From assembly GCA_964565575.1 (NCBI GenBank), contig CAZMFL010000001.1:1-48649 (forward strand): a stretch of DNA of 48,649 nucleotides, read 5' to 3'. Origin of the DNA: an uncultured Candidatus Peribacteria bacterium (lineage in GTDB: Bacteria; Patescibacteriota; Gracilibacteria; Absconditabacterales; Absconditicoccaceae). Position numbers and translations under genes: made by a program. The notes under the pieces were generated by a model that had not been told where the DNA came from, searched no databases, and worked only from the letters and a program-made list of their open reading frames with translations. Below, piece after piece: positions 1,870-37,300 of this stretch (position 1 is its first letter; each line of letters opens with the position of its first letter).

Positions 1870-2673
1870 ATGAAAAACAAACAAACAAAACCAAAAAGAA
1901 TTTTATCTGTAAGGGGGACCATTTTAACATTACCTACTTTGGATACGATTGAAGGCCCTGCTCTTGTTTTTATTAGCCCAGAAAGCATATTTATAAGCGA
2001 TACATATAAATTAAAAATTCACAAAAAATGTTTATGTGTTGTTGAAAATATTGAAACTGGTAAAACTAATATTAATTTAGAAGACTATTTCATCCCTGTT
2101 TATCTGGATCAAGATAATGGGATTGATATTGATTTGAAAGACATCTCCTATCTTTTTAAAACAACGCCAGAGCTAGAATTCGAAAAGCTCTCATCTGAAG
2201 ATTTTTTACTATTTGAATTCGGTGGAGTCAGAACAAAAAGCGTTCTTTCCCAAGAAGATCTTTACTCAAATTATTCACTCACGTCTCTTTTCGAAGAGTT
2301 ACAATTATGCATCGGAAGTTACGAATATGAGTACATAATTTGTGCAATAGAAAAATCATTGAGAAAAAAAATCAACAGTATTGGTAGTTTAGATCTAGCT
2401 AATCTCAAAAACGTACTTGAAAAAATTGAAAATTTCAAGACACACGATCCAGCCACAAATTACCAAGAAATGCTTGAAGACTTGCAAACATTGATTGAAC
2501 AAAAAATCAAAAAAACAATAAATGAAAGGAAAAACACAAAAAAAGAAAAATTCCCGAAAAAAGAAGACCTTGAACGCGCACTAAAAAAAGCACTCGAAAA
2601 AGAAGACTATGAAAGAGCTAGTCAAATTAGAGATTCGATAATAAAGATAACCGGAAACGCTCAAAAAACATAA
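1870..2673 (+). CDS. Hypothetical protein with C-terminal UVR-like motif (paralogue 1)
   Basis: Intact 267-aa ORF ending in TAA. The C-terminus EDLERALKKALEKEDYERASQIRDSIIKI resembles the UvrB/UvrC (UVR) motif. The N-terminus is similar to the next ORF. Confidence 0.7.
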   Translation: MKNKQTKPKRILSVRGTILTLPTLDTIEGPALVFISPESIFISDTYKLKIHKKCLCVVENIETGKTNINLEDYFIPVYLDQDNGIDIDLKDISYLFKTTPELEFEKLSSEDFLLFEFGGVRTKSVLSQEDLYSNYSLTSLFEELQLCIGSYEYEYIICAIEKSLRKKINSIGSLDLANLKNVLEKIENFKTHDPATNYQEMLEDLQTLIEQKIKKTINERKNTKKEKFPKKEDLERALKKALEKEDYERASQIRDSIIKITGNAQKT

Positions 2674-2677
2674 CATC

Positions 2678-3499
2678 ATGAAAGCAAAAATTGAAGGAAA
2701 AATAATCATTCTACCTACGCTTGCAGATGAACTCCCTATGTTTGATACTATCTATATAAGACAAAGCTCACTAATTATCTTTACAGATGGAGATGTTTAT
2801 ATAGAGCCAAGCACAACAAATTTTATCAAAGATAAAAATTTGCTTGATGGGTTTTCATTGCCTGTGTTTATTGATGAAGAAGGACTGACCATCAAAATGA
2901 AAGATGTTGATTTTGTCTACTACCCGAAACCCGAGGATGCAAAATCGATTTTAAGTGAAGAGGCAATATTTTGCGGAAAAGCAGACCTTTCTGCTATACG
3001 TACAAAAGAAGAATTGTTTTATCATTATTCTTTTGAAAGCTTATTTAAAAAACTTGTTTCTTGTTTGGATGAGGAAGAATATGAAACCATTTCAAATTTT
3101 TTTTTCAAACTTCTGTATGACAAATCCCAAAATGAAAAAGCCACGATCATTTATTCTTGTAGAGAGATGATTCAGTCGACATTAGACAATTTTTTGGGGT
3201 CAATTACAGAGCTTGACGAATACGCTGAGGAATACAAAGATAGATTGGTTGAAATTATGAAATTTTTGTCCAAACTATTGCCGAAAAAGCATTCCCTGAC
3301 CAGAAAATTGGCTGAAGAAAAATTAGAAGAAGGAAAACGACTGTACATAGAAGAGAGGAAAATCAAAGTCAAAAAGCAGCTGTACGAACTCAAAATAAAA
3401 TTTTCTGAAGCGAAAAAAGCGGAAGATTATGAGTCTGTTCAAAAACTTTTTGATGAAATGCATGCGTTAAAAAATGAACTAACAAATATGGGGAAATAA
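2678..3499 (+). CDS. Hypothetical protein with C-terminal UVR-like motif (paralogue 2)
   Basis: Intact 273-aa ORF lying 4 nt after paralogue 1. It shares the ILTLPTL/IIILPTL N-terminal pattern, the YSLTSLFEEL/YSFESLFKKL core and a C-terminal AEDYESVQKLFDEMHALKNEL motif. Confidence 0.7.
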   Translation: MKAKIEGKIIILPTLADELPMFDTIYIRQSSLIIFTDGDVYIEPSTTNFIKDKNLLDGFSLPVFIDEEGLTIKMKDVDFVYYPKPEDAKSILSEEAIFCGKADLSAIRTKEELFYHYSFESLFKKLVSCLDEEEYETISNFFFKLLYDKSQNEKATIIYSCREMIQSTLDNFLGSITELDEYAEEYKDRLVEIMKFLSKLLPKKHSLTRKLAEEKLEEGKRLYIEERKIKVKKQLYELKIKFSEAKKAEDYESVQKLFDEMHALKNELTNMGK

Positions 3500-4191: not shown

Positions 4192-7100
4192 TTATTTTTC
4201 TAGGTTGTCTTTCAATCTTGCAATCATCTGTAACGCTTGCATCGGCGTTATGTTATTTGGATCAAGCGATCCCAAAAGTCTTTTTATTTTCTCCAATGTG
4301 TTTTTGGCTTCTATTGATTCCTGATCGATACTCATCGCGAAAAGAGGCATAGAATCCGGCATCTTGTCGTTGTTTTGATCACCTTGTGAGATAGAGGTAT
4401 TTCAACTATTTTTGGTTTCATACACACGTAAGTATTTTTTGGCTGCCTCGGTGATAACGCTCGGGATACCAGCCAACTTCGCCACATCTATTCCGTATGA
4501 TTTATCTGCTCCTCAACGAATAATTTTTTTCATGAAGACAACATCTTTTTGCGTTTCGTATACTGCAACAGAATAGTTTTTCACTCATGGAAGATTTTTT
4601 TCTAGTTCAATGAGTTCATGATAGTGCGTCGCGAAAAGCGTCTTTGCACCTATATATTGCACGATATATTGTACTATTGCCTGCGCAAGCGCCATACCAT
4701 CATACGTTGATGTGCCACGCCCCAACTCATCCAAGATGATAAATGATTTTTCCGTTGCATTATGCAAAATATTGGACATCTCAATCATCTCTGTCATAAA
4801 TGTGGACTGGTTTTTCGCAATTACATCCCCTGATCCGACACGCGCGAACAATCCATCTACAAGCGATATTTGGGCTGTCTGTGCAGGCACGAATAATCAA
4901 CAATGTGCCATGAGTATAATCAACGCATTTTGTCTTAAATAAGTAGATTTACCACCCATATTTGGGCCAGTAATGATAGCAAGCGTTGTGTCATCGTTCA
5001 CCAAGTCATTTGGTGTAGAGCCATCTTCGATGGCATTTTTTGGAGAGGTACTCTCGCTTATCATATTTTCTGGGATAGTAGAATTACTTTGAAGTGTCGT
5101 TGATTGCAAGATTTCTAAACTTGTTTGCTGTGCGGTTGTTGGTGTCTCTGATAGTGATTTTTCTGCCGATGATCGTTGTGACACCTCTGTGAATGATTGC
5201 TGTTGTATATCGTTGGATGTTTGTAATTTTTCTAAACTTGTTTGCTGTGCGGCTGTCGTCTCTGATAGTCATTTCTCCGCCGATGGTTCTTGTGAAACTC
5301 CAGTGAATGATTGCTGTTGTGTGTCGTTGGTTGATTGCGATTGCGAGCCGTCGGTGACAAATTGTGCTGTCCCTAGTTGTTGTGAAATTCCTGCATATGA
5401 TTGCTGTTGTGAATCGATAGTTGATTGATCTTCCTCGGTCACCGATTGAAAGATTTCTGTTGCGGCAGTTCATCATTGTGCAAATCAATTCTCACCTAGC
5501 ATTCCGCCGGTATCACGACGTTTCCCAATCAATAAATCGTTTGGAATAAAATGTTGATCGTGTGGCAAAAACGCTTCAATAACTGGATGACGCCCACCCA
5601 AAATTTGTATGGATCATGTAGTTGTCATTTCAGGTTTCACATATTTTTTTTCTTTTGCGAAAAGCGCATGGGAAGTATACAAATCAAGCCAAGCGATACC
5701 ATCGGCGAGCTCATGAAATGCTGCGCTAGCAGCCAAAAGCGAAGCTTTTGCATCTTCCAACAACGCTTGTTCAGAGGAACGTAGCTGAAATTGGGCCGAC
5801 AAGACCTTACGTTGCAACTCATCTAAATATATACTTGTATATCTTTGCCCTGTTTTCAATGTTTGACGACGAATCATCTCGCGCTTCGGGTCGCCTTTGA
5901 TACTCCTGGCTTCAAAAGCATCAACATCCTTGGGTGTAACTTCCAAAACATATCATTGATTTGACACATACTTCACTTTTACGTTTGTAATTCAGGTTGC
6001 CTGTACGAGTTCTTGTTGGTACGAGAGCAACAGATTGTCGCTGTGATATGCTATTTTTCTGAGCTCGTCAATCTCTGTGCTGTATCAATCTTGGATATAA
6101 TCAATATCGTCATTGAGTCATTCAACTTTGAGCAGACTTTCCAGATATACAAAATACTCTTTTGTCTTTTCAAGTGCTTGTGACGAAACAAGAGGTTTCA
6201 GGCCGAGAGATCAAGGGTTGCTATCTGTGGGATCTATACCCACCCGAGACCGGTTTCATAGATCTTTGTGGACTAATCCCAACGCATATCTCAATTTCCC
6301 AAATGTCATTGGATTGTTTTTTTTGTACAAGAGCGTTGAGATAATCTTGGGTAGATCGACCATCCTGCGTAAAATCTCTTGGATATTTTTTGCTTCTCAA
6401 AGATGATCAGTATAATGCGAAATCCACGCCTGACGAGTTTGAATTGTTTCTGTGTGTTGTGTCGGATGTAACAATATCTCCCTCATCAACCTCGCTCAAA
6501 GAGCAGTAGAAGTCTGGTCTATCACACCAAGCAAACTATATTTTTTGGTAGATTCATACTGTGATGTAATAATTTCCAGGTTGCGAATAGTCACAGCATC
6601 AAGCATCACGTCATCGGTTTGTGAGTCATATTGTATGCGAAGAAGTGACCTCGCTACTCCTTCTTGAATGTGTTGTAAATAATGCAACAAGAGTCACATT
6701 GCATACTCTCTGCCATCTTCAAGCGCTTTTCCGAAACTAGAAAGTGTTTGTACACCAAACAATCAACTCAAAAAACGCTCCACGTCAACTGGTTTATCGT
6801 AGGTACTTACTAAAATATCTGTTCACTGTGATGTGACGTATGTGCGAATTTCTGTGTTCTGTGGGAAGTCTATATCAACAACAATTTCGCGTGGTTGTAG
6901 TCTAGAAAGATGTCATAGGAGATCTTCAAATGTATGGAAACTTCTTGTATAGTACGAGCCAACAGTCACGTCTCACCACGCACAATGATACGAGTCCATA
7001 TCGCCTCACGTGTAGGTAATTGCGGACAAATAGACAAACTCTTTTTTGCTTTCTTCGATAAATGTCGCAGGCGTGACAATCTGTGTTACTTTACGTTCCA

Positions 7101-7407
7101 CGATCTGCCCAGTTTTCGGTTCACTCATCTGCTCAGCGATAGCGACTTTGTATCCATGAGCGACTAGTCTCGCAATGTACTTGTCTACACTATGAAATGG
7201 CACACCTGCCATTGGAGCTGGATTTTCACTCGTTCTATCTCTTGATGTAAGGGTCAAATCAAGCACTTTGGCAGCAATTTTCGCGTCTTCATTAAATGTT
7301 TCATAAAAATCTCCCATACGAAAAAAAAGAATGCAATCAGGATGTTGCTTCTTCATATCAGTGTACTGTTTCTGCGCTGGGGTTAGCTTCTCACTATCTG
7401 CATTCAT
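4192..7407 (-). CDS. mutS: DNA mismatch repair protein MutS (1071 aa, with large internal insertion)
   Basis: I hand-translated the whole gene. It is one continuous frame from ATG 7407 to TAA 4192..4194, with only TGA interruptions. The N-terminus has [11 protein letters not shown]...PMAGVPFHS, the centre has [16 protein letters not shown], the Walker A is [15 protein letters not shown], and downstream come [14 protein letters not shown] and ATHYHEL. Confidence 0.93.
4990..5520 (-). repeat. In-frame Q/S/T-rich imperfect tandem-repeat insertion within mutS (~175 codons)
   Basis: The DNA is imperfectly repeated with a period of ~110 nt (e.g. ttctaaacttgtttgctgtgcgg... occurs twice). The repeated peptide units are QQQSFT(G/E)VSQ..SAEK(G/S)[12 protein letters not shown](K/I)LQ. 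The insertion lies between [10 protein letters not shown] and [14 protein letters not shown]. Confidence 0.85.
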
Positions 7408-7468
7408 AGATGTGAGTATAGTGTTTCCTTACGACGGTGCAACAGAAAAAAGAGACAGATAATACTAC

Positions 7469-7885
7469 CTAAACACATTTAGACGTTTTTGAGTTATGCG
7501 ATAACTTTAGTAATGGAGAATTTCATCTCAAAGTAGTATTCCACGCAGTGAGTTGTTTGGAAATAGATACCATCAAAATTAGTTTCTCGGTGTACTGGTT
7601 ATGTGATAAAATGCCAACACTATTGCATGCTCTCCAAATTATTTTGATCAACTCTATGTTTTTCTTTGCCTCTACAAGATGCTCAGACTTTTCCTTAGTA
7701 TTTGTACTCAAAGACGCAAGCGATATTTCCACCAAAACATTTAAAGCATAATTTTGCAAGCGCTCTCCAAAGGTATATTTATATTCTTTAGGAAACGAAA
7801 CGACCAACCTAGACAGAATCGTTAGTATTTCAAAACTATCCTGATAGACTGGTAGATGATCATAAGAAACCATCAAAAAATTCAT
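7469..7885 (-). CDS. avd: Four-helix-bundle protein (23S rRNA-IVS / Avd-like family); candidate DGR accessory variability determinant
   Basis: The peptide MNFLMVSYDHLPVYQDSFEILTILSRLVVSFPKEYKYTFGERLQNYALNVLVEISLAS matches the typical N-terminal pattern of this family (VYQ.s..l...i...FPk.eky.l..Ql). The start is ATG 7885 or 7873. The ORF passes the TGA at 7523 and reaches TAG 7469 under code 25. It lies immediately 3' of the template repeat. Confidence 0.7.
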
Positions 7886-7966
7886 AAAATAAAAAGATTC
7901 TCCCACTCTTTTAGAACTCCTGCATGCACAGAATCCAAAAAAAGAGTGAGAGAGCAATCATAGGAG

Positions 7967-8144
7967 TTCTTGAAACAACGAGCAGAGAAACCGTTTGCAC
8001 GGTTGTTGTTATTAGCTGGGTTAATATTGGACGAATTGAAGTTCAAGTTATAGGAGTTCGTTCCATTAGGAGTAGACGACCAGTAGTTGCCGTTTGATCC
8101 CTGATTGTTAACACCAGCGCTAGCGTTGTTGCGGTTACCTGCTA
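7967..8144 (-). repeat. DGR template repeat (TR)
   Basis: The 178-nt block is homologous to 8970..9147 at an offset of 1003 nt. By hand alignment all ~27 mismatches have A in this copy (minus sense) and C, G or T in the other. In the corresponding frame it is rich in AAC/AAT codons and encodes AGNRNNASAGVNNQGSNGNYWSSTPNGTNSYNLNFNSSNINPANNNNRANGFSARCFKN. It is not part of an intact ORF. Confidence 0.9.
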
Positions 8145-8302
8145 CGTTTTGGGTGATGACTGGATTTGTGTTTTACTATCCCTAATAAAACATCTTGTAT
8201 TACTACCACTCCCACAAAAAAAGAAATAATAGCGCATCACTGAATTCCCATTTTTCCGCACGCTCAAATACCTCTACAGCATTTGACTCTGGCGGAGCAA
8301 TA

Positions 8303-8833
8303 TTACAAAATAGGAAATTGCATCTCTTCCGTTTCTATTTTTCTATCTTTTTGGGTAATATTCTCAGCGGTGTGAAAGGATGGGAAATCAAGAGGTGGCA
8401 ATGGGGTCTTCACATTCACATCCAAAAAAGGGAGATCAACATGTTTGATAATACGCATACTTGCTTCATATTTTTGAATTACACCTTTCATCTCATCAAG
8501 CAAGGAAGCATAGACATCGATTGGTATCGTGATTTCAAGCGGTTTTGTTCCAAGGTGATACTGCAGTACAACTGGTCCTGTTTCATGAATTTGGAGAAGG
8601 ACATACGAATAATCTGCTTGTTTCAACAAATCCATATATTTCTCTCCGGCGTTCGCAGGGAATCCCGTCATCCTTGCTCCTCACTGCACTTGCACTTGGA
8701 ATCCAAAGAGGTAACCCAGCAAGACAGCATCTGACTCATACGCTCTGTAAAATCCTCCAACGACAAACAACAATATTCTATTTTTCCGATCTGGATCAGT
8801 CTTGTAGTGGTTTCGATACATCTGTGGTTGCAT
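8303..8833 (-). CDS. Small MutS-domain-I-like protein (176 aa) between VR and TR; candidate DGR accessory gene
   Basis: The ORF runs from ATG 8833 (alternative 8821) to TAA 8303..8305 with one in-frame TGA. The segment ILLFVVGGFYRAYESDAVLLGYLFGFQVQVQGGARMTGFPANAGEKYMDLLKQADYSYVLLQ parallels the MutS mismatch-binding domain seen in the adjacent mutS ([29 protein letters not shown]...[29 protein letters not shown]). Confidence 0.65.
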
Positions 8834-8929
8834 ACAAAGAGTCGCTATGTGCTAAAAAAAATTTCGCGGTTGGATAGTCATTCTCCTCTCTCCTCCGCCT
8901 CTCGCTCACTACAAGCGCGTAAGGATCAA

Positions 8930-8954
8930 GGGGACAAGGGGAAAGGGTCAAGGG
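8930..8954 (+). other. G-quadruplex-type motif (four G-runs) immediately 3' of the VR-bearing gene
   Basis: The plus strand reads GGGG-ACAA-GGGG-AAA-GGG-TCAA-GGG. It is followed on the minus sense by a purine-rich tract (gagcgagaggcggaggagagaggag). The locus is unusually G/C-rich for this AT-rich window. Confidence 0.5.
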
Positions 8955-8959
8955 TTAAA

Positions 8960-10162
8960 CTATGGGGAATTCTTGAAACAACGAGCAGAGAAACCGTTTG
9001 CACGGTAGCCGTAATCAGCTGGGTCAACATCGGACGAATCGAAGCCCAAGATATAGGAGCTCGCTCCATTAGGAGTAGACGACCAGTAGCGGCCGCCTGA
9101 CCCCTGACCGTAAACACCAGCGCTAGCGATGAGGCGGCGACCTGCCATAGGTAATTTAAGTGTATCTCTCAAGAGAAATCATTTATTACTTGCATATATA
9201 GCATCTCCCGAATAGATCTTTACCCGTGCATTATACAATCATTGTCGCTCTGTGCTTGTGGGTATATGATACCCTGTAGGACATGGTCACTGTCCGCCTG
9301 GTAATCGTAGGTTGGGATTCTGAGGTGTCGCCCAGTCATATGGGCTATTTGGTGCTAGAACAAATGTACTACCAGTATATGGTGCTGTAGGGCTTGGCAC
9401 TAGTGTGCTTGTTGTTGCTATTGTAGCAGTTCAGTCTTGATTGGTTCATGCTGTTCCATTCCAGAATCCATAGTTATTCCCTCGTTGATAGTAGTATCCA
9501 TACGAAGCAGATGTTGTTCCAACTTCCGATGCTCACAGGTTTTTATCCATCATCGTGTACACATTTGTTCCATCTGATACGATAGTATGTCCTCATTCGA
9601 AATATACTCATGGTACACTTGTGTCTACAGTTCCCCCTCCTGGCACGATATTGGTTGTTAGTCACTTTCCTACTTTTTGATATGATCCTTGTTTGTCTGA
9701 GTCTATTACCCCCGTACCGTTTGTTGTGTTTCCTTTCTTGGATTCCATTAGTGCAGTAATTGCATATCCTGTTCATGCATCGTTTGTCCAGTATGCGAAT
9801 GAGTCTCCTGTCGCTAGTATTCCTCCTGGTTCCGTTGATATAGCTACCGTTCACTTCCCTGGATCTGTGGGGATGTTTGTTAGGTATGGTGAGATTGCAT
9901 CTGTTACTATTGGTGTTGCTACGCTTATTCATGGTGCGCCTGTCAGTGGTGCTCGTGGATAGGTTGTTCCTTTCTCCTGTGCGTACAGTTCTACTGCACT
10001 TGAGATCTGTCATACCTTTACTATACGCGCAGAATCACTTGCTCTTTCTTTTGCTCCTGTTAATCTAGGGACCAGTACGCCAGCGAGGATTCCGATGATC
10101 ACTACGACAACCAGCATCTCTATCAGGGTAAAAGATTTGCGTTGTGTTTGAAATTTCGTCAT
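8960..10162 (-). CDS. DGR target: type IV pilin-like N-terminus fused to a Fib_succ_major (FISUMP)/C-type-lectin-fold-like C-terminal domain (400 aa)
   Basis: I hand-translated the whole gene. It is a continuous frame from ATG 10162 to TAG 8960..8962 with 15 in-frame TGA. The N-terminus MTKFQTQRKSFTLIEMLVVVVIIGILAGVLVPRLTGAKERASDSARI is a prepilin/GspG-like class III signal plus helix. The C-terminal part has TMMDKNLGA, YGYYYQRGNNYGF, CPTGYHIPTSTE and LKLPMAGRR...YWSST...GFSARC, typical of TIGR02145-type domains that DGRs diversify. Confidence 0.85.
8970..9147 (-). repeat. DGR variable repeat (VR), last ~59 codons of the target gene
   Basis: This is the counterpart of the TR. It encodes AGRRLIASAGVYGQGSGGRYWSSTPNGASSYILGFDSSDVDPADYGYRANGFSARCFKN. 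The 3' ~36 nt (ccgtgcaaacggtttctctgctcgttgtttcaagaa) is identical to the TR, which is IMH-like. Confidence 0.9.
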
Positions 10163-10279
10163 TCAGTTGGGGTTAAGGGTAAATTGTTAGTTATTAATCA
10201 TTGTTTGTATTATAGAATCTTAAGCGTATTGCAAGGTGGATTTTCTATTATGCCGTATTTTCTATCTATACTGAAATAT

Positions 10280-10337
10280 AAAAAAATCGCCTTGCGATTT
10301 TTTTACCGACGGTCTGTCGGTGACCGACGGTTTTTTT
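10280..10337 (-). terminator. Cluster of terminator-like hairpins (bidirectional)
   Basis: A7-ATCGC-CTT-GCGAT-T7 is a palindromic hairpin with runs on both sides. It is followed by the overlapping hairpins ACCGAC-ggtct-GTCGGT and GTCGG-tga-CCGAC plus T7. The cluster lies between the ATPase stop (10440) and the target-gene start (10162). Confidence 0.5.
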
Positions 10338-10439
10338 GGAAAACTGTTAGTGTGTAGGAAACCGTAGTGAGTAACTTTGTTTGCCCGAAGGGAGTTGTTA
10401 TATAAATTTTTAAATCTTTTCTTTCAGAAAAATTGTAAT

Positions 10440-11561
10440 CTAGAGTAATAGAGAGAGCCAGTTTTCTGTTGTTATGGTAGAAAATTTTTGTTTCCCATAC
10501 TTTTTTACGAAATCTTCTGGGATAGCGGCATTTTTAGTTCGTTTGCACTCATAACAATCAAGTTTTCCATCATATTCACGGATAAGATCTATTTCTGCTC
10601 ATTGATAGTTTCTCCAAAAATAGAGATTTCCATGTTGTTGGGTATATGTATGCTTTTTAAGATATTCCATAATGACAAAATTTTCCCAAAGTTGTCCTTT
10701 ATCATTTCTTGAATCAAAACCATTAAATTGATTAATTACTGCATTTCTGATTCCTGTATCTAAGAAATAATATTTGCGTTTTTTGGTGATTTCATTTCTC
10801 AGATTACTATTCCATGCTCCAAGAGAAACAAGCACAAATCATTTTTCTAAAATATCTAAATAGCGACTAACTGTTTTAGTGTCTATACCGATTTTTGTTG
10901 CTAGTTCATGAATAGAAACTTCCTGGCCTACTTGAAAAGCAAGTAATTTGAGTAGATCAATAAGATGTCTAGGTGATTTTATCTTTTCCAGAGCAAGAAC
11001 ATCTTTTAGAAGATAAGATTCTACTAGTTCAGTCAATATTTCTTTTTTCTTGGCAAAAGAAGAACTCATAATTACTTCTGGATACGATCAGTAAATTAGA
11101 AACTCCTCTAGATGTTCTTGAAGTTCATATTTGTTATATATCGACAAGAGTTCTTGTTGCGAACAAGGATAAAGCGTAAGAGTTTTCTTTCTGCCTGTGA
11201 GTGGTTCTCAAATATACTGAGAGAGTTCAAATGAAGAAGAACCTGTTGCTATAATTGTTTTTTCTGGAAGATTGTCTATCAGAATTTTTAATCCTGCTCC
11301 TATGTGAGGGATATTTTGTGCTTCATCTATTGCTATAATATCATATCCTTCTGCATATCTCAATATTTGTTCCATATCTCTACTTGAGAAAAGATTTTGA
11401 AGTTTTATGTTTTCTCCTGTATCTAGTTTATATGGTTTGTTACTTGACTCAAGAAAATGTTTGAGAAGAGTGGTTTTACCAGTTCTTCTTGGTCCATATA
11501 AAATCAATACTCTCCCTTTCCAAAAGTATTTTTCTAAGTTTTTATATATTCTTGTAATCAT
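10440..11561 (-). CDS. AAA+ ATPase with C-terminal DUF4143-like region (373 aa)
   Basis: Three ORF-track pieces lie in one frame joined by TGA, and I hand-checked the joins. Walker A is LYGPRRTGKTT and Walker B is IIAIDEAQ. A winged-helix-like segment is HELATKIGIDTKTVSRYLDILEK. The ORF ends in TAG at 10440..10442. Confidence 0.8.
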
Positions 11562-22389: not shown

Positions 22390-25980
<3,591 letters not shown>

Positions 25981-26126: not shown

Positions 26127-29966
<3,840 letters not shown>

Positions 29967-31727: not shown

Positions 31728-31844
31728 ATAATAATAGATTATGATCTGAACGAGACTCAATTTTTTGCTTCAGAAAAAAAAAGATAAAGCGTGTATTAAT
31801 CATTAAACATTAATCATTATTATATTTTGATTTTCCTATAATCC

Positions 31845-31880
31845 AAAAAAACAGGCCATTCGCGACCTGCTTTTCTTTTT
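31845..31880. terminator. Bidirectional terminator between convergent nusB and the giant surface-protein gene
   Basis: A7-CAGGCC-attcgc-GACCTG-cTTTTcTTTTT, with A/T runs on both sides. Confidence 0.55.
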
Positions 31881-31912: not shown

Positions 31913-34900
31913 CTATTTTTTGTACACATTCAAGATTTCTGCTAATGTATCTGCTCCTGGAGGGAGGCTATTAAATATGTCTGGATTGTACTTGAGGACA
32001 ACTGCTCCATAATCTTTAAGTGCATTTTGTCTCTCTGTTGATTGTTCCTGTCATTGATACATATCAGCAAACCACGTATTTACATTTGATCTTCTTGTAG
32101 CTAGCAGGCTATCTGATGTTGTACTACGGATATTTCCACCGATGAGAATTCCATTTATAGTAATATCTCATGCATTACACCACTCTTTTGAAAGATCTGT
32201 ATTGTGAGCAGATTTTCTCCAAGATCCAAATCAAGCATCTGATGAAATATCTTCCAGAGAGATAAAGATACCATTTACTTGTTGTTGAGTATTACAACTA
32301 TCTGGTGAAAAGTGAATATTACCATTTTGAGCAATAAACATGCCCTTGTTTCATAAATTCCCCTTTACATTCAATGCGCCTTTAGTGAGGATCAATGTAA
32401 ATGGTTTTGCTGGAGTGGTCGTTTTATCACCAACTGTAATAGTAGCATTCCCATTTTCCGGAGAGAATATATATACCTCTTTATTAGGTACTTTGTAAAC
32501 GGTAACATTCGAACCTTCTTTTGATTTAAATGTTGCTCCATCAGCTTTCACTGCAATTTTTTGATAGTCTTCTATAAGCTTATTAACTGCTGTTGATACT
32601 TCGGTGCCTGGATCATAATTTGTTGTTAAATCAGGCACTCATGTTGTAAATATAGGCGAACCATCTGGGAATTGCAAGGATGAGGTGAGAGTATCTGTTG
32701 CGAAGTCACCAAGTGCACCTCTTGAAACCATATATGGTTTGGTAACGACGAAGTTCATTTGACAAACTCTTTCTGTAGAGTTTGTGGTTGTCTTGGTTGA
32801 TGTGCCATCTAAATTTCACGATGAGTTAACATTACATATTTCATAAGAAGAGACTTTCATATCTATAGAGTGCTCTCCAAGAGCCGAAGCATTAAATATA
32901 AATTTTTTTGCATCAAATCAAGCAGGTGTTGGATACTCTTCAGGTTTATATCACATTGATTTTAATATGCTATCATAAGCAGTATTTATTAATTTGTTTG
33001 TTGTTGTATTGAAACATTCTTGATCAAAATTCAATATTATGTCGTTTTTTGCATTTTGCACTATAAATTCACACATAACAGAATTTCTCACAATTTGAGA
33101 TTTAGAAGGCGCAACAGTTCAAGAAACACAACTTGTAACAAAATCAGTATTATCTAAATCAGTTCATTTTATCTTTGATTCAAGATCCCACCAAAATGGC
33201 AAATATTCATTTGATTGAATTGACGGTGGATCTATGTATCCACAAGTCGGAGCATCTACATTTTCAGGTGCTGCTTTCACTTGACATGGATAGTTTGACT
33301 TAGGTCAATAACAGAATCTTCCTTTCAACGCTCATTGAGTAATAACTGCACCAGAACCAAATCTAAATGGATCATTTGGGTTAGAAAGATTTCATTCATC
33401 ACAAATTTCATATACTCATTGGTTATTCGGTCTATGCACAATTCCATCACCACAATAAAAATTAGTTCATCCTCCACAGTTAACAACACATCAACCTGGA
33501 GAGTATGGTGTTATTTTTGCTGATGCTTCATCATCCTCAGTTCATGGATTCGCTCCTCTATTACATGGGTCAGAATCTATATCTTTTGGATTCTCGCCAA
33601 CAGAAGCTTTACCATTGTATTCACATATCTCAGCATAGTTTGTTCTTTCTACGGTTCCATTGTAAACTGCCTTGAATGTTATAATCAATGAACCCTTTGC
33701 AGGAATTGTTAAATTACTAACCAACAATTGCCTATTACCAGATGAGTACACAGCTGTTGCATTAGTCAACGATGAGTTTACGAGCGTTGAACCTTCTACA
33801 TACTCAAGATCTGCAGGCATATAATCTTTTAGGGAAAAACCAGTTACTCCTACTGTTCAACTATTCGTTACAGTAAGCGTAATTGTAACCTCAGTCGCCT
33901 TTTGCACATTTGGAAGAGTCTTTAGATTGTTAATAGTTTTTTCCAATGAAAGATCAAAATAATCATTTACTGGATTCACTGATGCAAATGATGTGTCATC
34001 TTCATCGTTCCCTGTGCCATTACATGGAATTGAATCTATGTCATATGATTTTGTCGTATCTTGGCCCATGCCATTGTAGTCACATATTTCTGTATAGTTT
34101 GTTCTCGTTACCTCATCAACATATCTTGCTTTGAACGTAAGGGTCATAGATGCTCCCGATTTCAATGTCAATCCTGTCCATATTAATGTGCCAGGAGTAG
34201 CATCACCTGCTGTATTTGAAGTATACTTACTACCACTTGAAGCTTGCACGAAAACGAAACCAGCTGGAAGATAGTCTTTTACTGTGAAGTTAGTTGCTGT
34301 ATCTGGTCATGCATTTGTTACAACCAAAGAGAAATCTATAATATCTCCTGAATGTGCTTGTATAGATTTTTTTCCATTCGCAAGTTTGTTGATTGACAGA
34401 TCGAAGTATGGTTTCGTCGTCGGTGGTATGATAACTCCATTTGATGTATCGTCTTCGTTGTTGCTTGTGCCGTTACATGGGTTTGAGTCTGCGTCATACG
34501 GTTTTGTGCTGTCTTGTCCGTTTCCTGCTCCTACACCATTGTAGTCACATATTTCTGTGTAGTTCGTTTCTCTTCCGTTTGAAATTGGTCATACGTATTT
34601 CACCTTCACTGTTAATACAAATGATCCTACCGCTCCTATATTCAAATCGCTCCATACTATCGTTTTGGTAGTCGCTGTATATGCTCCGTTATTGCTCGCA
34701 GAGACAAACTCTAGTCCCTTTGGTAGATAGTCTTTTACTGTAAATCCATTTACTCCTACTGTTCCACTGTTTGTTACTGTTAGTGTGTAATCAAACTCAT
34801 CACCTATTACTACATTTCTTTCCTTTGGTGTTTTGTTGATTGACAGATCGAAGTATGGTTTCGTCGTCGGTGGTATGATAACTCCATTTGATGTATCGTC

Positions 34901-37300
34901 TTCGTTGTTGCTTGTGCCGTTACATGGGTTTGAGTCTGCGTCATACGGTTTTGTGCTGTCTTGTCCGTTTCCTGCTCCTACACCATTGTAGTCACATATT
35001 TCTGTGTAGTTCGTTTCTCTTCCGTTTGAAATTGGTCATACGTATTTCACCTTCACTGTTAATACAAATGATCCTACCGCTCCTATATTCAAATCGCTCC
35101 ATACTATCGTTTTGGTAGTCGCTGTATATGCTCCGTTATTGCTCGCAGAGACAAACTCTAGTCCCTTTGGTAGATAGTCTTTTACTGTAAATCCATTTAC
35201 TCCTACTGTTCCACTGTTTGTTACTGTTAGTGTGTAATCAAACTCATCACCTATTACTACATTTCTTTCCTTTGGTGTTTTGTTGATTGACAGATCGAAG
35301 TATGAGTTTGTTTTCGTGATGGCGTCATCACAATTATTATTATTGAAATTATTGTCGTCTGTGATACATACTTTATTTAAAAATTCCTCTTTTGGTGCTA
35401 GTGTGCTAGGAATTTTGGCTTTGATTGTGATAGTTCATCTTGCTCCTGGTTGCAATGTTCCAACATTCCAAGTTAGCGTTTGACCATTTACAGTTGGTTG
35501 TCCAACATTCGGTGTAGATGTTGCAGAGTTAACTATATATTCTGTTTTTGCAGGAAGCGTATCAGTCACTGTTCCTGGTCGTGCAACTGTTCCACTATTT
35601 CCATAGTTTATCGTATATGTTAGCGTATCTCCAGCTACCGCAACTGCTTTATCAACTTCTTTTGTTGATCGAAGATCAACACATCACATGTAAAACTCTG
35701 CCCATGAAGGGTTGTTTTCAAGCAATGTATTTGGCTCGTTCGTTGCAGAAATTGTCAAATCATTATGTATTTTGAGTGCACTACAAACTGGCGTAGAAGC
35801 ACCAATTTTCACATATATTGTGATGGTACCACCCGCGTTTGGCGCAAGTGTTCCAATATTCCATGTAAGTTTGTTTCCATTTACAATTGGTTGTCCAATA
35901 TCTGGACTAGAAACAGAAGAATTTGCAATATATGTCACTTGCGTAGGAAGTGTGTCAGTAACTACTACTCCATTCGCCGTTCCAGCTCCTTGATTTTTGT
36001 ATGTTAATGTATACTTCACTGTTTGTCCAGGCATATATGAACCTGAAGCCACTTCAACTTTCTTGGTTGTAAGCACATCAGGATTTTCACACGATGTGGT
36101 GAAAGTTGCCGTTGAGTTGTTATTCGATGTATTTGTTTCACCATCTTTTGTGTCTGGCGCTATCGTTGCATCATTCTTGAACGGCGCACAAAATGGAGCA
36201 ATATTTAATTTTACAGAAAATGTAATTTCATTGTAGTACCCTGCTGGCATATTTCCCATATTCCAACGAAGTGTATTTGCTGTCGCATTGTATGTTGGTT
36301 CTAATGCTGTTCCATTAGAAAATCTAGTTGATCCAGCAGTATACGTAACACCGGCAGGAAGCTGATCAGCGATAATAACATTTGTCGCGGTTCCAGTACC
36401 AATATTTCTTACGATAAGTTTATATACGACAGTATCTCCTGTTACATATCATATAGTATTTCAAACTACTGATTTCACAATTGATACATCAGGAATAGCT
36501 GGTGCTAATATAGTTGTACAAGTCGCTGAACACAGTGCTCACGGTTTGCCATTTTGTGTTCCAAGGTCACATTGCTCACCCTTATTCATAGAATTTGTTG
36601 TCCCATTCCAAATGTTGTATCCATATGCATCAGTTGTTGCTACTCAAGCTGGCAATGCGCTTCCATTATCAACGATACCATCGCCACACCAAGAAACATA
36701 ATAGTTTGCACACTCGTTTCAGGATTGTCTCTCGCTTTCTGCTATTGCATAATTAGTTATGCTCCATTGTGTGGAAGCACCTATTTGCCCATTTATTATT
36801 GGATAATAAAGCCCCGCGCTTGTATTTGAGCTACCTTGTATCAATGGTACTCTAGAAATATTGTAAACTATTTGCATTGCTAGTAAAGTCGCAGTTGGTT
36901 GAGAGCCAACTGTTGCAGTAGTACCGGGAACGTTTTGTGTAGCCACTACTTCATAAACGTTCGCTGGTTTACTATTTGATGCCAGTGCAAAAGATTCATT
37001 TCCTCACTGAATTGCAAATCCAGCATACGGATTATAAATTGTAATAAGACTCTTACTTGGAGAAATAATCCAACGAAAAGCAGAACTGCTATAAAAAGTA
37101 TCATACGGATAAAATGTGCTTCACTTATAGTAACGATAATTACTAAACTTAGTACCATCATCCTGACAGGCCTGTGGAGCCAAAGATACAGTTGAGGTTT
37201 GTAAAGGTATATACGAAGCAGCAAATGTAGACGATACAAATGACATTGCTCCTAGAAGCACGCTCATTCATAAATACCTTTTTAGTGATTGCATTTTCAT
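31913..37300 (-). CDS. Giant secreted repeat protein (1795 aa): signal peptide, Cys-rich CGDG repeats, multiple DUF11-type (TIGR01451-like) beta-sandwich repeats
   Basis: I hand-translated the full length. It is a single frame from ATG 37300 to TAG 31913..31915 with only TGA interruptions. The signal-like N-terminus is MKMQSLKRYLGMSVLLGAMSFVSSTFA/AS. Two CGDGIV...CD motifs resemble the myxococcal Cys-rich repeat. Repeated modules follow the pattern V..GD...Y.ltv.N.G...a..v.v.D.LP.g..fv and are followed by YTEICDYNG..., D.DS.PCNG and NEDDTS linkers. Confidence 0.85.
34386..35309 (-). repeat. Perfect tandem direct duplication, 2 x 447 bp (+ ~30 bp of a third unit), in frame (149 codons per unit)
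   Basis: 34386..34832 and 34833..35279 are identical as far as I compared them. The spurious plus-strand ORFs 34441..34671 and 34888..35118 have identical translations. Identity continues to ~35309 and then diverges. Confidence 0.9.

What the first reader, a model, noticed from the sequence alone, without database searches (positions are those of the whole stretch)
7469..10162. The DGR cassette has accessory genes but no reverse transcriptase in cis
Seen: the order on the minus strand is target(VR), then a 176-aa MutS-domain-I-like ORF, then TR, then an Avd-like four-helix-bundle ORF. Housekeeping mutS follows directly. Upstream lies an AAA ATPase. Every stretch longer than ~450 nt in the 48.6-kb window is occupied by an assigned ORF, and none shows RT motifs.
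Established: canonical DGRs encode the RT next to the TR, and Avd is a four-helix-bundle protein of the 23S-IVS family that partners with the RT.
Inference: one possibility is that this is a satellite TR/VR cassette served in trans by an RT encoded elsewhere. The clean A-only pattern argues for recent activity. The other possibility is a cassette that lost its RT very recently. As far as I recall, a MutS-like accessory ORF has been noted in some DGR surveys of CPR genomes. Its function is unknown, and its position between VR and TR here is striking.
Basis: partly seen in the sequence, partly recalled or inferred. Interest (0 to 1): 0.85.

Follow-up and report, generated by a model that had tools for sequence, protein, structure and literature searches.

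The report
DGR cassette that lost its RT
A protein-diversifying retroelement (DGR) in a tiny UGA-recoded bacterium has lost its reverse transcriptase gene through a 1-kb deletion but keeps every other part intact. The same RT-less version recurs in several related strains, so it may rely on a reverse transcriptase encoded elsewhere in the genome.

Summary
Read with genetic code 25 (UGA = Gly), the minus strand encodes a pilin-like target with a VR, then a MutS-like accessory protein (MSL), the TR, and bAvd, followed directly by mutS. TR and VR differ at 28 of 180 positions, 27 of them at TR adenines. An RT profile finds nothing in any frame of the 48.6 kb.

Comparative data explain why. Every intact relative (L003, L004, L030) runs target–MSL–TR–avd–RT. 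One strain (L029) has avd–RT–mutS at this same locus. The window lacks about 1.02 kb of that sequence: the RT open reading frame minus its last ~19 codons, joined at a short microhomology. Four independent assemblies from other samples carry the identical junction. They have four TR variants and two downstream contexts. This rules out a misassembly and a very recent loss.

MSL and avd show strong purifying selection among the RT-less copies. The window's TR/VR pair is as clean as in an RT-bearing relative. That favours an RT supplied in trans (about 0.55) over a decaying relic (about 0.35). Recombination between strains weakens the dating, and the rest of the genome is not available. MSL is a known DGR accessory gene, and its position here is the family norm.

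The parts
8960..10162 (-). DGR target gene, 400 aa under code 25 with 13 in-frame UGA codons. It has a type IV pilin-like N-terminus (N-methylation motif plus a hydrophobic helix) and a variable C-terminal lectin-like domain.
   Evidence: Pfam N_methyl 5e-7; Fib_succ_major weak (E 0.0015, below its cut-off). 61% aa identity to the L003 target and ~94% nt identity to the L009 target.
8966..9145 (-). Variable repeat (VR), covering the last 60 codons of the target.
   Evidence: 180 nt aligned without gaps to the TR, with 27 of 28 mismatches at TR adenines. It differs from the orthologous VR in L009 at 32 positions, all at TR-adenine sites.
8842..8957 (-). Conserved element just downstream of the target stop codon: C-rich CCCTTGACCC repeats, a GC-rich segment, then a T-run. 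It is a candidate target-recognition or terminator region.
   Evidence: conserved after every target gene of this family (window, L009, L020, L024, L003, L031). The single-strand fold is not better than shuffled sequence (z = -0.26), so its function is inferred only from conservation.
8303..8833 (-). MSL (MutS-like) accessory gene, 176 aa. It has a MutS domain I fold and keeps the Phe of the MutS Phe-x-Glu mismatch motif, but the Glu is replaced by Arg (GGFYR).
   Evidence: Pfam MutS_I 2.8e-6, above its cut-off. Using the 84%-identical homolog P0001, all of the top 50 Foldseek PDB hits are MutS/MSH N-terminal domains, though from a low-confidence model with pLDDT 48. Motif alignment. Between RT-less copies there are 14-21 synonymous against 3-7 nonsynonymous differences.
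7963..8142 (-). Template repeat (TR), 55 adenines, 15 AAC codons, intergenic.
   Evidence: It matches both the window VR and the L009 VR-B at 124 of 125 non-adenine positions.
7886..7962 (-). TR 3' spacer with a long hairpin (arms at 7939-7952 and 7900-7912). It is the probable RT/Avd binding and priming region of the TR RNA.
   Evidence: MFE -28.8 kcal/mol, z = -1.7; the hairpin is conserved in 6 cassettes, and 7 of 20 pairs show changes on both sides. The role is inferred from published work on the Bordetella phage DGR spacer, recalled from my own knowledge.
7469..7885 (-). avd (bAvd-type four-helix-bundle accessory gene), pI 9.25. An alternative GTG start lies at 7906. The last ~12 codons are read out of frame from the RT stub.
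   Evidence: Pfam bAvd 2.2e-10, above its cut-off. Weak PDB hit to the 23S-IVS family protein 2gsc. 91% aa identity to the L003 Avd. Tail analysis.
7505..7514 (-). Deletion junction: the end of avd, ATTACTAAAG, is joined to the RT 3' end. TA[C/T]AAAA(G) microhomology is present on both sides in intact relatives.
   Evidence: the identical junction occurs in the window, L005, L031, L032 and L033.
7465..7504 (-). Remnant of the reverse transcriptase gene, roughly its last 15 codons plus the stop. The L029 alignment extends the similarity to about 7520.
   Evidence: L029 1488-5913 matches window 7520-3029 at 91%; in the RT frame the stub reads *SYRITQKRLNVFR* in the window, against KSYRITQKLLKVCK* in intact L029.
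10187..10334 (-). Conserved region upstream of the target gene, with a palindrome/terminator-like hairpin at 10314-10330. It marks the left edge of the shared cassette.
   Evidence: 84-86% identical to the region upstream of the targets in L003, L009 and L024. Hairpin.

Best explanation
This is an MSL-type diversity-generating retroelement in a code-25 (Gracilibacteria-like) candidate-phyla-radiation (CPR) bacterium, and its own reverse transcriptase gene has been deleted.

Shown:
- The ancestral order at this locus was pilin-like target(VR) - MSL - TR - hairpin spacer - avd - RT - mutS.
- A ~1.02-kb deletion between short microhomologies removed the RT from its start codon to about 19 codons before its stop.
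- This deletion allele is shared by several diverged strains and has been moved onto different cassette backgrounds by recombination.

Inferred, as the most likely way it works:
1. The cassette is non-autonomous. The TR and its 3' hairpin are still transcribed.
2. The cis-encoded Avd, together with a DGR reverse transcriptase encoded at another DGR locus in the genome, makes adenine-mutagenised cDNA.
3. That cDNA replaces the VR at the C-terminus of the pilin-like protein.
4. MSL binds the mismatch-dense heteroduplex and keeps host MutS from reverting it. MSL is a MutS domain I that keeps the intercalating Phe but has lost the Glu.
5. The outcome is variation in a pilus-borne adhesin, which would be useful to a host-dependent cell.
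For: Deletion and ancestral state:
- L029 has avd-RT(351 aa)-mutS and is ~91% identical to the window on both sides. The window lacks L029 469-1487.
- L003, L004 and L030 all have the RT immediately after avd.

Not an artefact, and not private to this genome:
- The identical junction occurs in L005, L031/L032 and L033, from samples SRR29243429, SRR27676564, SRR27676576 and SRR29384757.
- These junction haplotypes differ by 2-18% within about 50 nt of the junction, so the allele is not young.

Only the RT is missing:
- MSL, TR, hairpin and avd are intact in 4 of 5 RT-less assemblies.

Purifying selection among RT-less copies:
- avd: 9 synonymous / 3 nonsynonymous, and 8 / 0.
- MSL: 11/4, 20/3, 21/7 and 14/6.
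- Pooled test against neutrality: p = 8e-9.

A clean template:
- The window TR/VR pair has 27 A-site and 1 non-A mismatch, the same as the RT-bearing control L003.
- The window VR and the L009 VR differ at 32 sites, all at TR adenines.
- There is no non-A change among the window TR and these two VRs. About 5-10 such changes would be expected in a neutral TR over the window-L005 divergence.

Supporting context:
- The post-TR hairpin is conserved with compensatory changes.
- The lineage carries several paralogous cassettes and targets per genome (L009 x2, L020, L024), so a second RT locus is plausible.
- Literature: avd, TR and RT work when supplied in trans (PMC5758913, citing its reference 9). 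Incomplete DGR loci with inferred trans activity exist in Thiohalocapsa (PMC10907252). Deleting mutS raises retrohoming 5-10 fold in Bacteroides, whose pilus DGRs also encode Msl (bioRxiv 10.1101/2024.11.15.621889).
Against: - No RT was found. There is none in the 48.6-kb window, and I could not access the rest of the genome.
- In 5.8 billion proteins, only two RTs of the cognate subfamily (72% identity or more) turned up (L003 and L029). Neither could be tied to an RT-less strain.
- The closest MAG (CAZXON01) shows further erosion. At the same mutS locus the whole MSL-TR-avd module is gone. L020 keeps only an MSL fragment. L024 keeps only a 120-aa RT remnant. None of its four pattern hits is a TR.
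- Two RT-less copies carry possible damage. The L031 MSL has TGA>TAA at codon 51. The L005 TR changes the invariant Trp of YWSSTP to Arg.
- TR adenine columns are not significantly better conserved than other columns (p = 0.30).
- The segment-by-segment identity matrix is mosaic. L033 is 98-100% identical to the RT-bearing L029 across TR 3' end, spacer and avd 5'. Some of the purifying-selection signal and the clean TR/VR could therefore have been inherited from RT-bearing backgrounds by recombination, rather than maintained after the deletion.
Confidence: 0.55

Rival explanations
1. Decaying relic. The RT deletion inactivated the cassette, no other RT serves it, and the VR is frozen. The intact appearance of MSL, avd and TR reflects limited time since each background became RT-less, plus recombination with RT-bearing alleles still present in the population.
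For: - No RT was found in the window or linked to any RT-less strain.
- The closest MAG shows the next steps of erosion at three or four paralogous loci, including this one.
- There is a nonsense codon in the L031 MSL and a Trp>Arg change in the L005 TR.
- L033 is nearly identical to the RT-bearing L029 except at the junction, so for at least one background the RT-less state may be recent.
- Wu et al. discarded more than half of candidate DGRs as inactivated (PMC5758913).
Against: - The same RT-only lesion recurs on four TR backgrounds and in two contexts, while everything else stays open and constrained (omega about 0.05-0.1). Random decay should give assorted lesions.
- The junction haplotypes themselves have diverged by 2-18%, so the allele has persisted.
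- The window TR shows no non-A drift relative to two VRs.
Confidence: 0.33
2. Refreshment at the population level. RT-less cells never diversify themselves, but they acquire new VR (and TR) alleles by homologous recombination from RT-bearing relatives living in the same communities.
For: - The identity matrix is mosaic across MSL, TR, avd, junction and mutS.
- RT-bearing and RT-less alleles occur in sibling samples SRR8925813 and SRR8925812.
- TR types differ by 15-21% between strains whose flanks are 94-100% identical.
Against: - This does not explain why avd and MSL would stay under selection in cells that cannot use them.
- It requires frequent short recombination tracts.
- No VR data are available from other RT-less strains.
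Confidence: 0.08
3. Artefact. The RT is really present but was lost by misassembly, or is hidden by the alternative genetic code.
For: TR/VR repeats often break or collapse assemblies. Table-11 ORF calling fragments every gene in this window.
Against: - Four independent assemblies from other samples cross the same avd-stub junction.
- Six-frame code-25 profile and tblastn searches are negative while positive controls score strongly.
Confidence: 0.02

Closest known systems
MSL-type DGRs ('architecture D' of Wu et al. 2018, PMC5758913), including the Legionella DGR and the Bacteroides Bfr/Bth/Bun DGRs that diversify pilus proteins (bioRxiv 10.1101/2024.11.15.621889)
   Same: - TR/VR pair with adenine-specific mismatches.
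- Avd together with a small MutS-domain-I accessory protein.
- A variable C-terminal lectin-like domain on a pilus-associated surface protein.
- All genes on one strand.
   Different: - No RT in the cassette.
- The host is a code-25 CPR bacterium.
- The target has a type IV pilin N-terminus, not a Bacteroides type V pilus lipoprotein.
Incomplete DGR loci and remote targets of Thiohalocapsa PB-PSB1 (PMC10907252)
   Same: - Loci lacking an RT and/or TR sit beside complete ones in a multi-DGR genome.
[quoted passage not shown]
- Structural variants with an intact RT coexist in the population.
- Redundant components get degraded.
   Different: - There the damage is by transposons and MITEs, and the trans donor TR/RT could be named within one genome.
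- Here the lesion is a clean microhomology deletion of the RT alone. The cassette keeps its own TR, Avd and MSL. The donor RT is unknown.
Bordetella phage BPP-1 DGR (avd-TR-brt supplied in trans on a plasmid; PMC3240598, and PMC5758913 citing its reference 9)
   Same: Shows that the RT does not have to be encoded next to the target, and that Avd, the TR RNA with its 3' spacer, and the RT act as a diffusible complex.
   Different: In that system the TR and RT are still encoded together. A TR + Avd unit separated from its RT in nature has not been tested experimentally, as far as I found.

Membership tests
Diversity-generating retroelement (DGR) | TR/VR repeat pair whose differences fall almost only at TR adenines | tested here: met
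   27 of 28 mismatches in 180 nt are at TR adenines; Fisher p = 1e-15.
Diversity-generating retroelement (DGR) | VR lies at the 3' end of a protein-coding target with a C-type-lectin-like variable domain | tested here: inconclusive
   The VR covers the last 60 codons of an intact 400-aa ORF. The fold is only hinted at by a sub-threshold Fib_succ_major hit (E 0.0015). No structure was predicted for the target.
Diversity-generating retroelement (DGR) | DGR-clade reverse transcriptase encoded in the cassette, next to the TR | tested here: not met
   No RT in six frames of the window. Only a 15-19 codon 3' stub remains. An RT is present in relatives L029, L003, L004 and L030.
Diversity-generating retroelement (DGR) | Asymmetry between TR and VR at the 3' end (IMH versus IMH*) and a structured element downstream of the VR | tested here: inconclusive
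   The single non-A mismatch lies 4 nt from the end of homology. A conserved 115-nt element follows every target stop codon, but no significant hairpin was predicted.
MSL (MutS-like) DGR accessory protein | Small protein (112-283 aa) homologous to MutS domain I, found in DGRs that also encode avd | tested here: met
   176 aa. Pfam MutS_I 28 bits against a cut-off of 20.6. All top 50 Foldseek hits for homolog P0001 are MutS/MSH (low-confidence model). avd is adjacent. Definition from PMC5758913.
bAvd / 23S-rRNA-IVS four-helix-bundle family | Profile match above the curated cut-off, a basic protein of about 110-130 aa | tested here: met
   PF22296 41.4 bits against a cut-off of 40; PF05635 24.7 bits, below its cut-off. 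pI 9.25. Weak PDB sequence hit to 2gsc.
Trans-served (non-autonomous) DGR locus | An intact DGR RT encoded elsewhere in the same genome | not testable with these tools
   The window's genome is not in the searchable collections. The closest MAG is CAZXON01 at 94-95% identity.
Trans-served (non-autonomous) DGR locus | Ongoing adenine-site VR variation in cells that carry the RT-less allele | not testable with these tools
   No other assembly of an RT-less strain covers the VR. The only cross-strain comparison is with L009, which lacks the module: 32 of 32 differences are at adenine sites.

The most novel reading that the evidence does not exclude
RT-less 'target-MSL-TR-avd' units may be a self-sustaining class of non-autonomous DGR cassettes in code-25 CPR bacteria. 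Each would carry its own template and its own Avd/MSL, tuned to one pilin-like target. They would spread between loci and strains by recombination, and all would draw on a single master reverse transcriptase. That division of labour would resemble non-autonomous and autonomous mobile elements. The identical deletion junction on four TR backgrounds and in two genomic contexts is what such a system would look like.
Probability: 0.3. Interest if true: 0.65.

Novelty: new member of a known kind. Interest (0 to 1): 0.45.

Why it matters
DGR surveys start from the RT, so cassettes like this one are invisible to them. If RT-less cassettes that keep their own TR, Avd and MSL are functional, three things follow:
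- The number of diversified genes in CPR bacteria is underestimated.
- Avd and the TR spacer, rather than RT proximity, would define which template an RT uses.
- The retained MSL would give a natural handle on how DGRs evade mismatch repair.

If the cassette is instead a relic, the series gives an unusually clean stepwise picture of how DGRs are dismantled in streamlined genomes: RT-bearing (L029), RT-less (window, L005, L033, L031/L032), module-less (L009). Either way the target is a type IV pilin-like adhesin, which is relevant to how these host-dependent cells attach.

Tried and rejected
1. **Misassembly or hidden RT.** Rejected.
2. **MSL as a recent duplicate of the adjacent mutS 5' end.** Rejected. 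They are only 27% identical over 94 aa, and related cassettes sit next to argS or another gene.
3. **Phage-borne cassette.** No relatives in the viral collection.
4. **'The window TR is derived and the VR followed it after the deletion'**. Dropped as proof. The L009 VR shows that the window-type backbone is older, and the identity matrix is mosaic.
5. **'The L005 TR is the template of the L024 target.'** Rejected on counting: 19 non-A mismatches.
6. **Dating the selection on avd and MSL to after the deletion, using divergence of the stub.** Weakened. L005, L031 and L033 stubs are nearly identical to the L029 RT tail, and L033 is a recombinant.
7. **Searches that returned nothing:**
   - VR-peptide homolog search.
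   - Metagenome scan for the spacer motif.
   - Exact look-ups of the MutS N-terminal fragment, the MSL fragment, and two table-11 ORFs over the target and VR.
   - Rfam and tRNA scans of the window.
   - PDB sequence search with the MSL profile.
8. **MSL structure prediction.** The model was poor (pLDDT 48). It is used only as weak support.
Full report
**1. Genetic code and gene map**

Table-11 ORF calling shatters every gene in the window. Reading UGA as sense nearly triples the total length of ORFs of at least 100 aa. UGA falls on invariant glycines of RpoB (SLGPG#L, GQRF#EMEVWALE#Y) and RpoC (SQSI#EPGTQ). The organism therefore uses code 25, as Gracilibacteria and Absconditabacteria do. 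Under code 25 the region 4192-11561 on the minus strand reads as follows:

| Feature | Coordinates | Notes |
|---|---|---|
| AAA_14/DUF4143 ATPase | 11561..10440 | upstream neighbour |
| Target gene | 10162..8960 | 400 aa, type IV pilin-like N_methyl N-terminus |
| MSL | 8833..8303 | 176 aa |
| avd | 7885..7469 | bAvd-type |
| mutS | 7407..4192 | 1071 aa |

**2.

- A 180-nt direct repeat (7963-8142 and 8966-9145) aligns without gaps.
- On the minus strand, 27 of the 28 differences are at adenines of the intergenic copy (18 A>G, 6 A>T, 3 A>C). The only other difference is 4 nt from the 3' end of homology. Fisher p = 1e-15.
- The TR has 15 AAC codons in the VR frame.
- Pfam places the two small ORFs in MutS_I (28 bits, cut-off 20.6) and bAvd (41.4 bits, cut-off 40).
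- A low-confidence model of the 84%-identical MSL homolog P0001 still hits only MutS/MSH N-terminal domains in its top 50 PDB matches.
- Avd is basic, with pI 9.25.
- No RT exists in the window. Motif scan, tblastn and a 120-sequence RT profile are all negative, and the controls score strongly.

**3. Where the RT went**

The closest MSL homolog (84% aa) lies on a 128-kb ENA scaffold (L003). Its order is target - MSL - TR - avd - RT(357 aa) - argS, and the RT start overlaps the end of avd. Two more distant relatives, L004 and L030, have the same order. Window 7506-10334 is 78% identical to L003, and the similarity stops 3 nt before the L003 RT start codon.

A search with the L003 RT found P0006 (74% identical). 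Its contig L029 (Logan SRR8925813) reads TR 3' end - avd - RT(351 aa) - mutS - next gene, and is about 91% identical to the window on both sides. Relative to L029, the window lacks positions 469-1487. That is about 1.02 kb, the RT ORF except its last ~57 nt. The window's avd therefore runs out of frame into the RT stub, which explains its odd 12-residue tail. The junction sits in a TA[C/T]AAAA(G) microhomology that is visible on both sides in the intact relatives.

**4. Not an artefact, and not private to this genome**

Four further assemblies from different sequencing runs carry exactly the same junction:

| Locus | Sample | Content after the junction |
|---|---|---|
| L005 | SRR29243429 | mutS |
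| L033 | SRR29384757 | mutS |
| L031 | SRR27676564 | a different gene |
| L032 | SRR27676576 | a different gene |

All four contigs include TR, avd and the stub; L032 begins within the TR, and the other three also include MSL. L031 and L032 leave the window's context about 75 nt after the stub and continue into a small membrane or secreted protein gene.

Around the junction these haplotypes differ by 2-18%. Contigs 100% and 99.5% identical to other parts of the window occur in SRR11845636 and SRR8925812.

The closest genome in GTDB is MAG CAZXON01, labelled Peribacteria, at 94-95% identity. At the same locus it has the target gene followed by mutS, and the whole MSL-TR-avd module is absent (L009). 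It has three more pilin-like targets elsewhere. One keeps an MSL fragment (L020). One lies about 3.6 kb from a 120-aa RT remnant (L024).

The lineage therefore shows a series at one locus: RT-bearing, then RT-less, then module-less. It also carries several paralogous cassettes per genome.

**5. Is the RT-less cassette still used?**

Evidence for:
- Only the RT is missing, and MSL, TR, hairpin and avd are open in 4 of 5 RT-less assemblies.
- Pairwise comparisons among RT-less copies give avd 9 syn / 3 nonsyn and 8/0, and MSL 11/4, 20/3, 21/7 and 14/6. That is omega of about 0.05-0.1. The pooled test against neutrality gives p = 8e-9.
- The window TR/VR pair (27 A-site, 1 non-A mismatch) cannot be told apart from the RT-bearing L003 pair, which is also 27 and 1.
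- The window VR and the L009 VR differ at 32 positions, all at TR adenines. Neither VR nor the TR has any other non-A change. A neutral TR would be expected to gain about 5-10 over the window-L005 divergence.
- The hairpin immediately 3' of the TR is conserved in six cassettes, with compensatory changes.

Evidence against:
- No RT could be linked to any RT-less strain.
- The cognate RT subfamily is represented only by L003 and L029 in the protein collection.
- The L031 MSL has TGA>TAA at codon 51.
- The L005 TR changes the invariant Trp of YWSSTP to Arg, and TR adenine columns are not significantly better conserved than others.
- CAZXON01 shows that this clade does dismantle these cassettes.
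- The segment identity matrix is mosaic. L033 is 98-100% identical to the RT-bearing L029 across TR 3' end, spacer and avd 5', and then switches to the window-type sequence at the junction. The deletion allele has therefore been recombined onto other backgrounds. Part of the constraint signal may have been inherited from RT-bearing history.

My weighting is about 0.55 for a non-autonomous cassette served by an RT elsewhere, 0.33 for a relic, 0.08 for refreshment at the population level by recombination, and 0.02 for an artefact.

**6. Proposed mechanism**

Shown: the anatomy, the deletion, and the constraint on the accessory genes.

Inferred:
1. The TR plus hairpin RNA is bound by the cis-encoded Avd and an RT supplied in trans.
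2. Adenine-mutagenised cDNA replaces the VR.
3. MSL binds the mismatch-rich heteroduplex and shields it from MutS. MSL keeps the intercalating Phe of the MutS Phe-x-Glu motif but has Arg or Lys in place of Glu in all four family members.

The MSL inference rests on two published points. Deleting mutS raises retrohoming 5-10 fold in Bacteroides, consistent with all-or-nothing heteroduplex repair. Bacteroides pilus DGRs also encode Msl (bioRxiv 10.1101/2024.11.15.621889).

**7. Comparison with what is known**

- MSL is a published accessory class: 16 of 372 DGRs, always with avd (PMC5758913). Its position between VR and TR is simply the gene order of this family.
- Incomplete DGR loci with inferred trans activity, and with intact structural variants in the same population, have been described in Thiohalocapsa (PMC10907252).
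- avd/TR/RT can act from a plasmid (PMC5758913, PMC3240598).

What this case adds is modest. It is a precisely mapped RT-only deletion allele that persists and recombines in code-25 CPR bacteria, it keeps its own TR, Avd and MSL, and it targets a type IV pilin-like protein. Hence 'new member of a known kind', with interest 0.45.

Noticed in passing
whole window (examples: rpoB 22393-25980, rpoC 26127-29966): The genome uses genetic code 25: UGA sits at universally conserved Gly positions. The closest MAG (CAZXON01) also needs UGA read-through for mutS and the target genes. Yet it is labelled 'Candidatus Peribacteria', a class in the phylum Peregrinibacteriota in NCBI taxonomy. From my own knowledge, that group is not usually associated with code 25, so the label may be off.
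   Followed up: partly
window 5100-5430 (inside mutS, minus strand): mutS carries an in-frame insertion rich in Q, S and T. It is built from about three diverged 85-117-nt tandem units, lies upstream of the Walker A motif of the ATPase domain, and varies in length between strains (shorter in L009 and L029).
   Followed up: partly
window 31745-31849; L003 7027-7132: A ~105-nt intergenic stretch upstream of the 1795-aa surface protein gene is 74.5% identical to an intergenic stretch in L003. Nothing else outside the DGR cassette matches between the two. There is no Rfam hit. It may be a shared regulatory or RNA element.
   Followed up: no
window 31913-37300 (minus strand): This 1795-aa predicted surface protein contains a long internal repeat that appears exactly identical: the same stretch of about 150 aa starting 'YFDLSINKTPKERNVVIGDEFDYTLTVTNSG' occurs twice. 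That suggests a very recent tandem duplication or an assembly collapse or expansion.
   Followed up: no
window 1870-2673 and 2678-3499: Two adjacent paralogous ORFs of about 270 aa contain no UGA codons at all, which is unusual in this genome. The first ends in a UvrB/UvrC (UVR) motif. Function unknown.
   Followed up: no
L031 189-191 (MSL codon 51): TGA (Gly) is mutated to TAA in one RT-less copy. An ATG preceded by GGAG follows 4 codons later, so the C-terminal 122 aa might still be made. L003 has two consecutive UGA codons at this spot.
   Followed up: partly
L024 898-1928 (MAG CAZXON01 contig 2): This is a remnant of a second, different DGR RT type: about 120 N-terminal residues, 51% identical to the L003 RT, followed by an avd-like fragment. 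It lies 3.6 kb upstream of another pilin-like target. It shows the lineage once had more than one RT type.
   Followed up: partly
L009 2408-2536; L003 8038-8166: The last 43 codons of a 333-aa gene upstream of the L003 cassette are 100% identical at the protein level to the tail of a YebC-like ORF in L009. The flanks of these cassettes are recombination mosaics.
   Followed up: no
window 10314-10330: A 7-bp-stem GC-rich hairpin followed by a T-run lies between the ATPase gene and the target gene. It sits inside the 150-nt stretch conserved upstream of targets in L003, L009 and L024.
   Followed up: no
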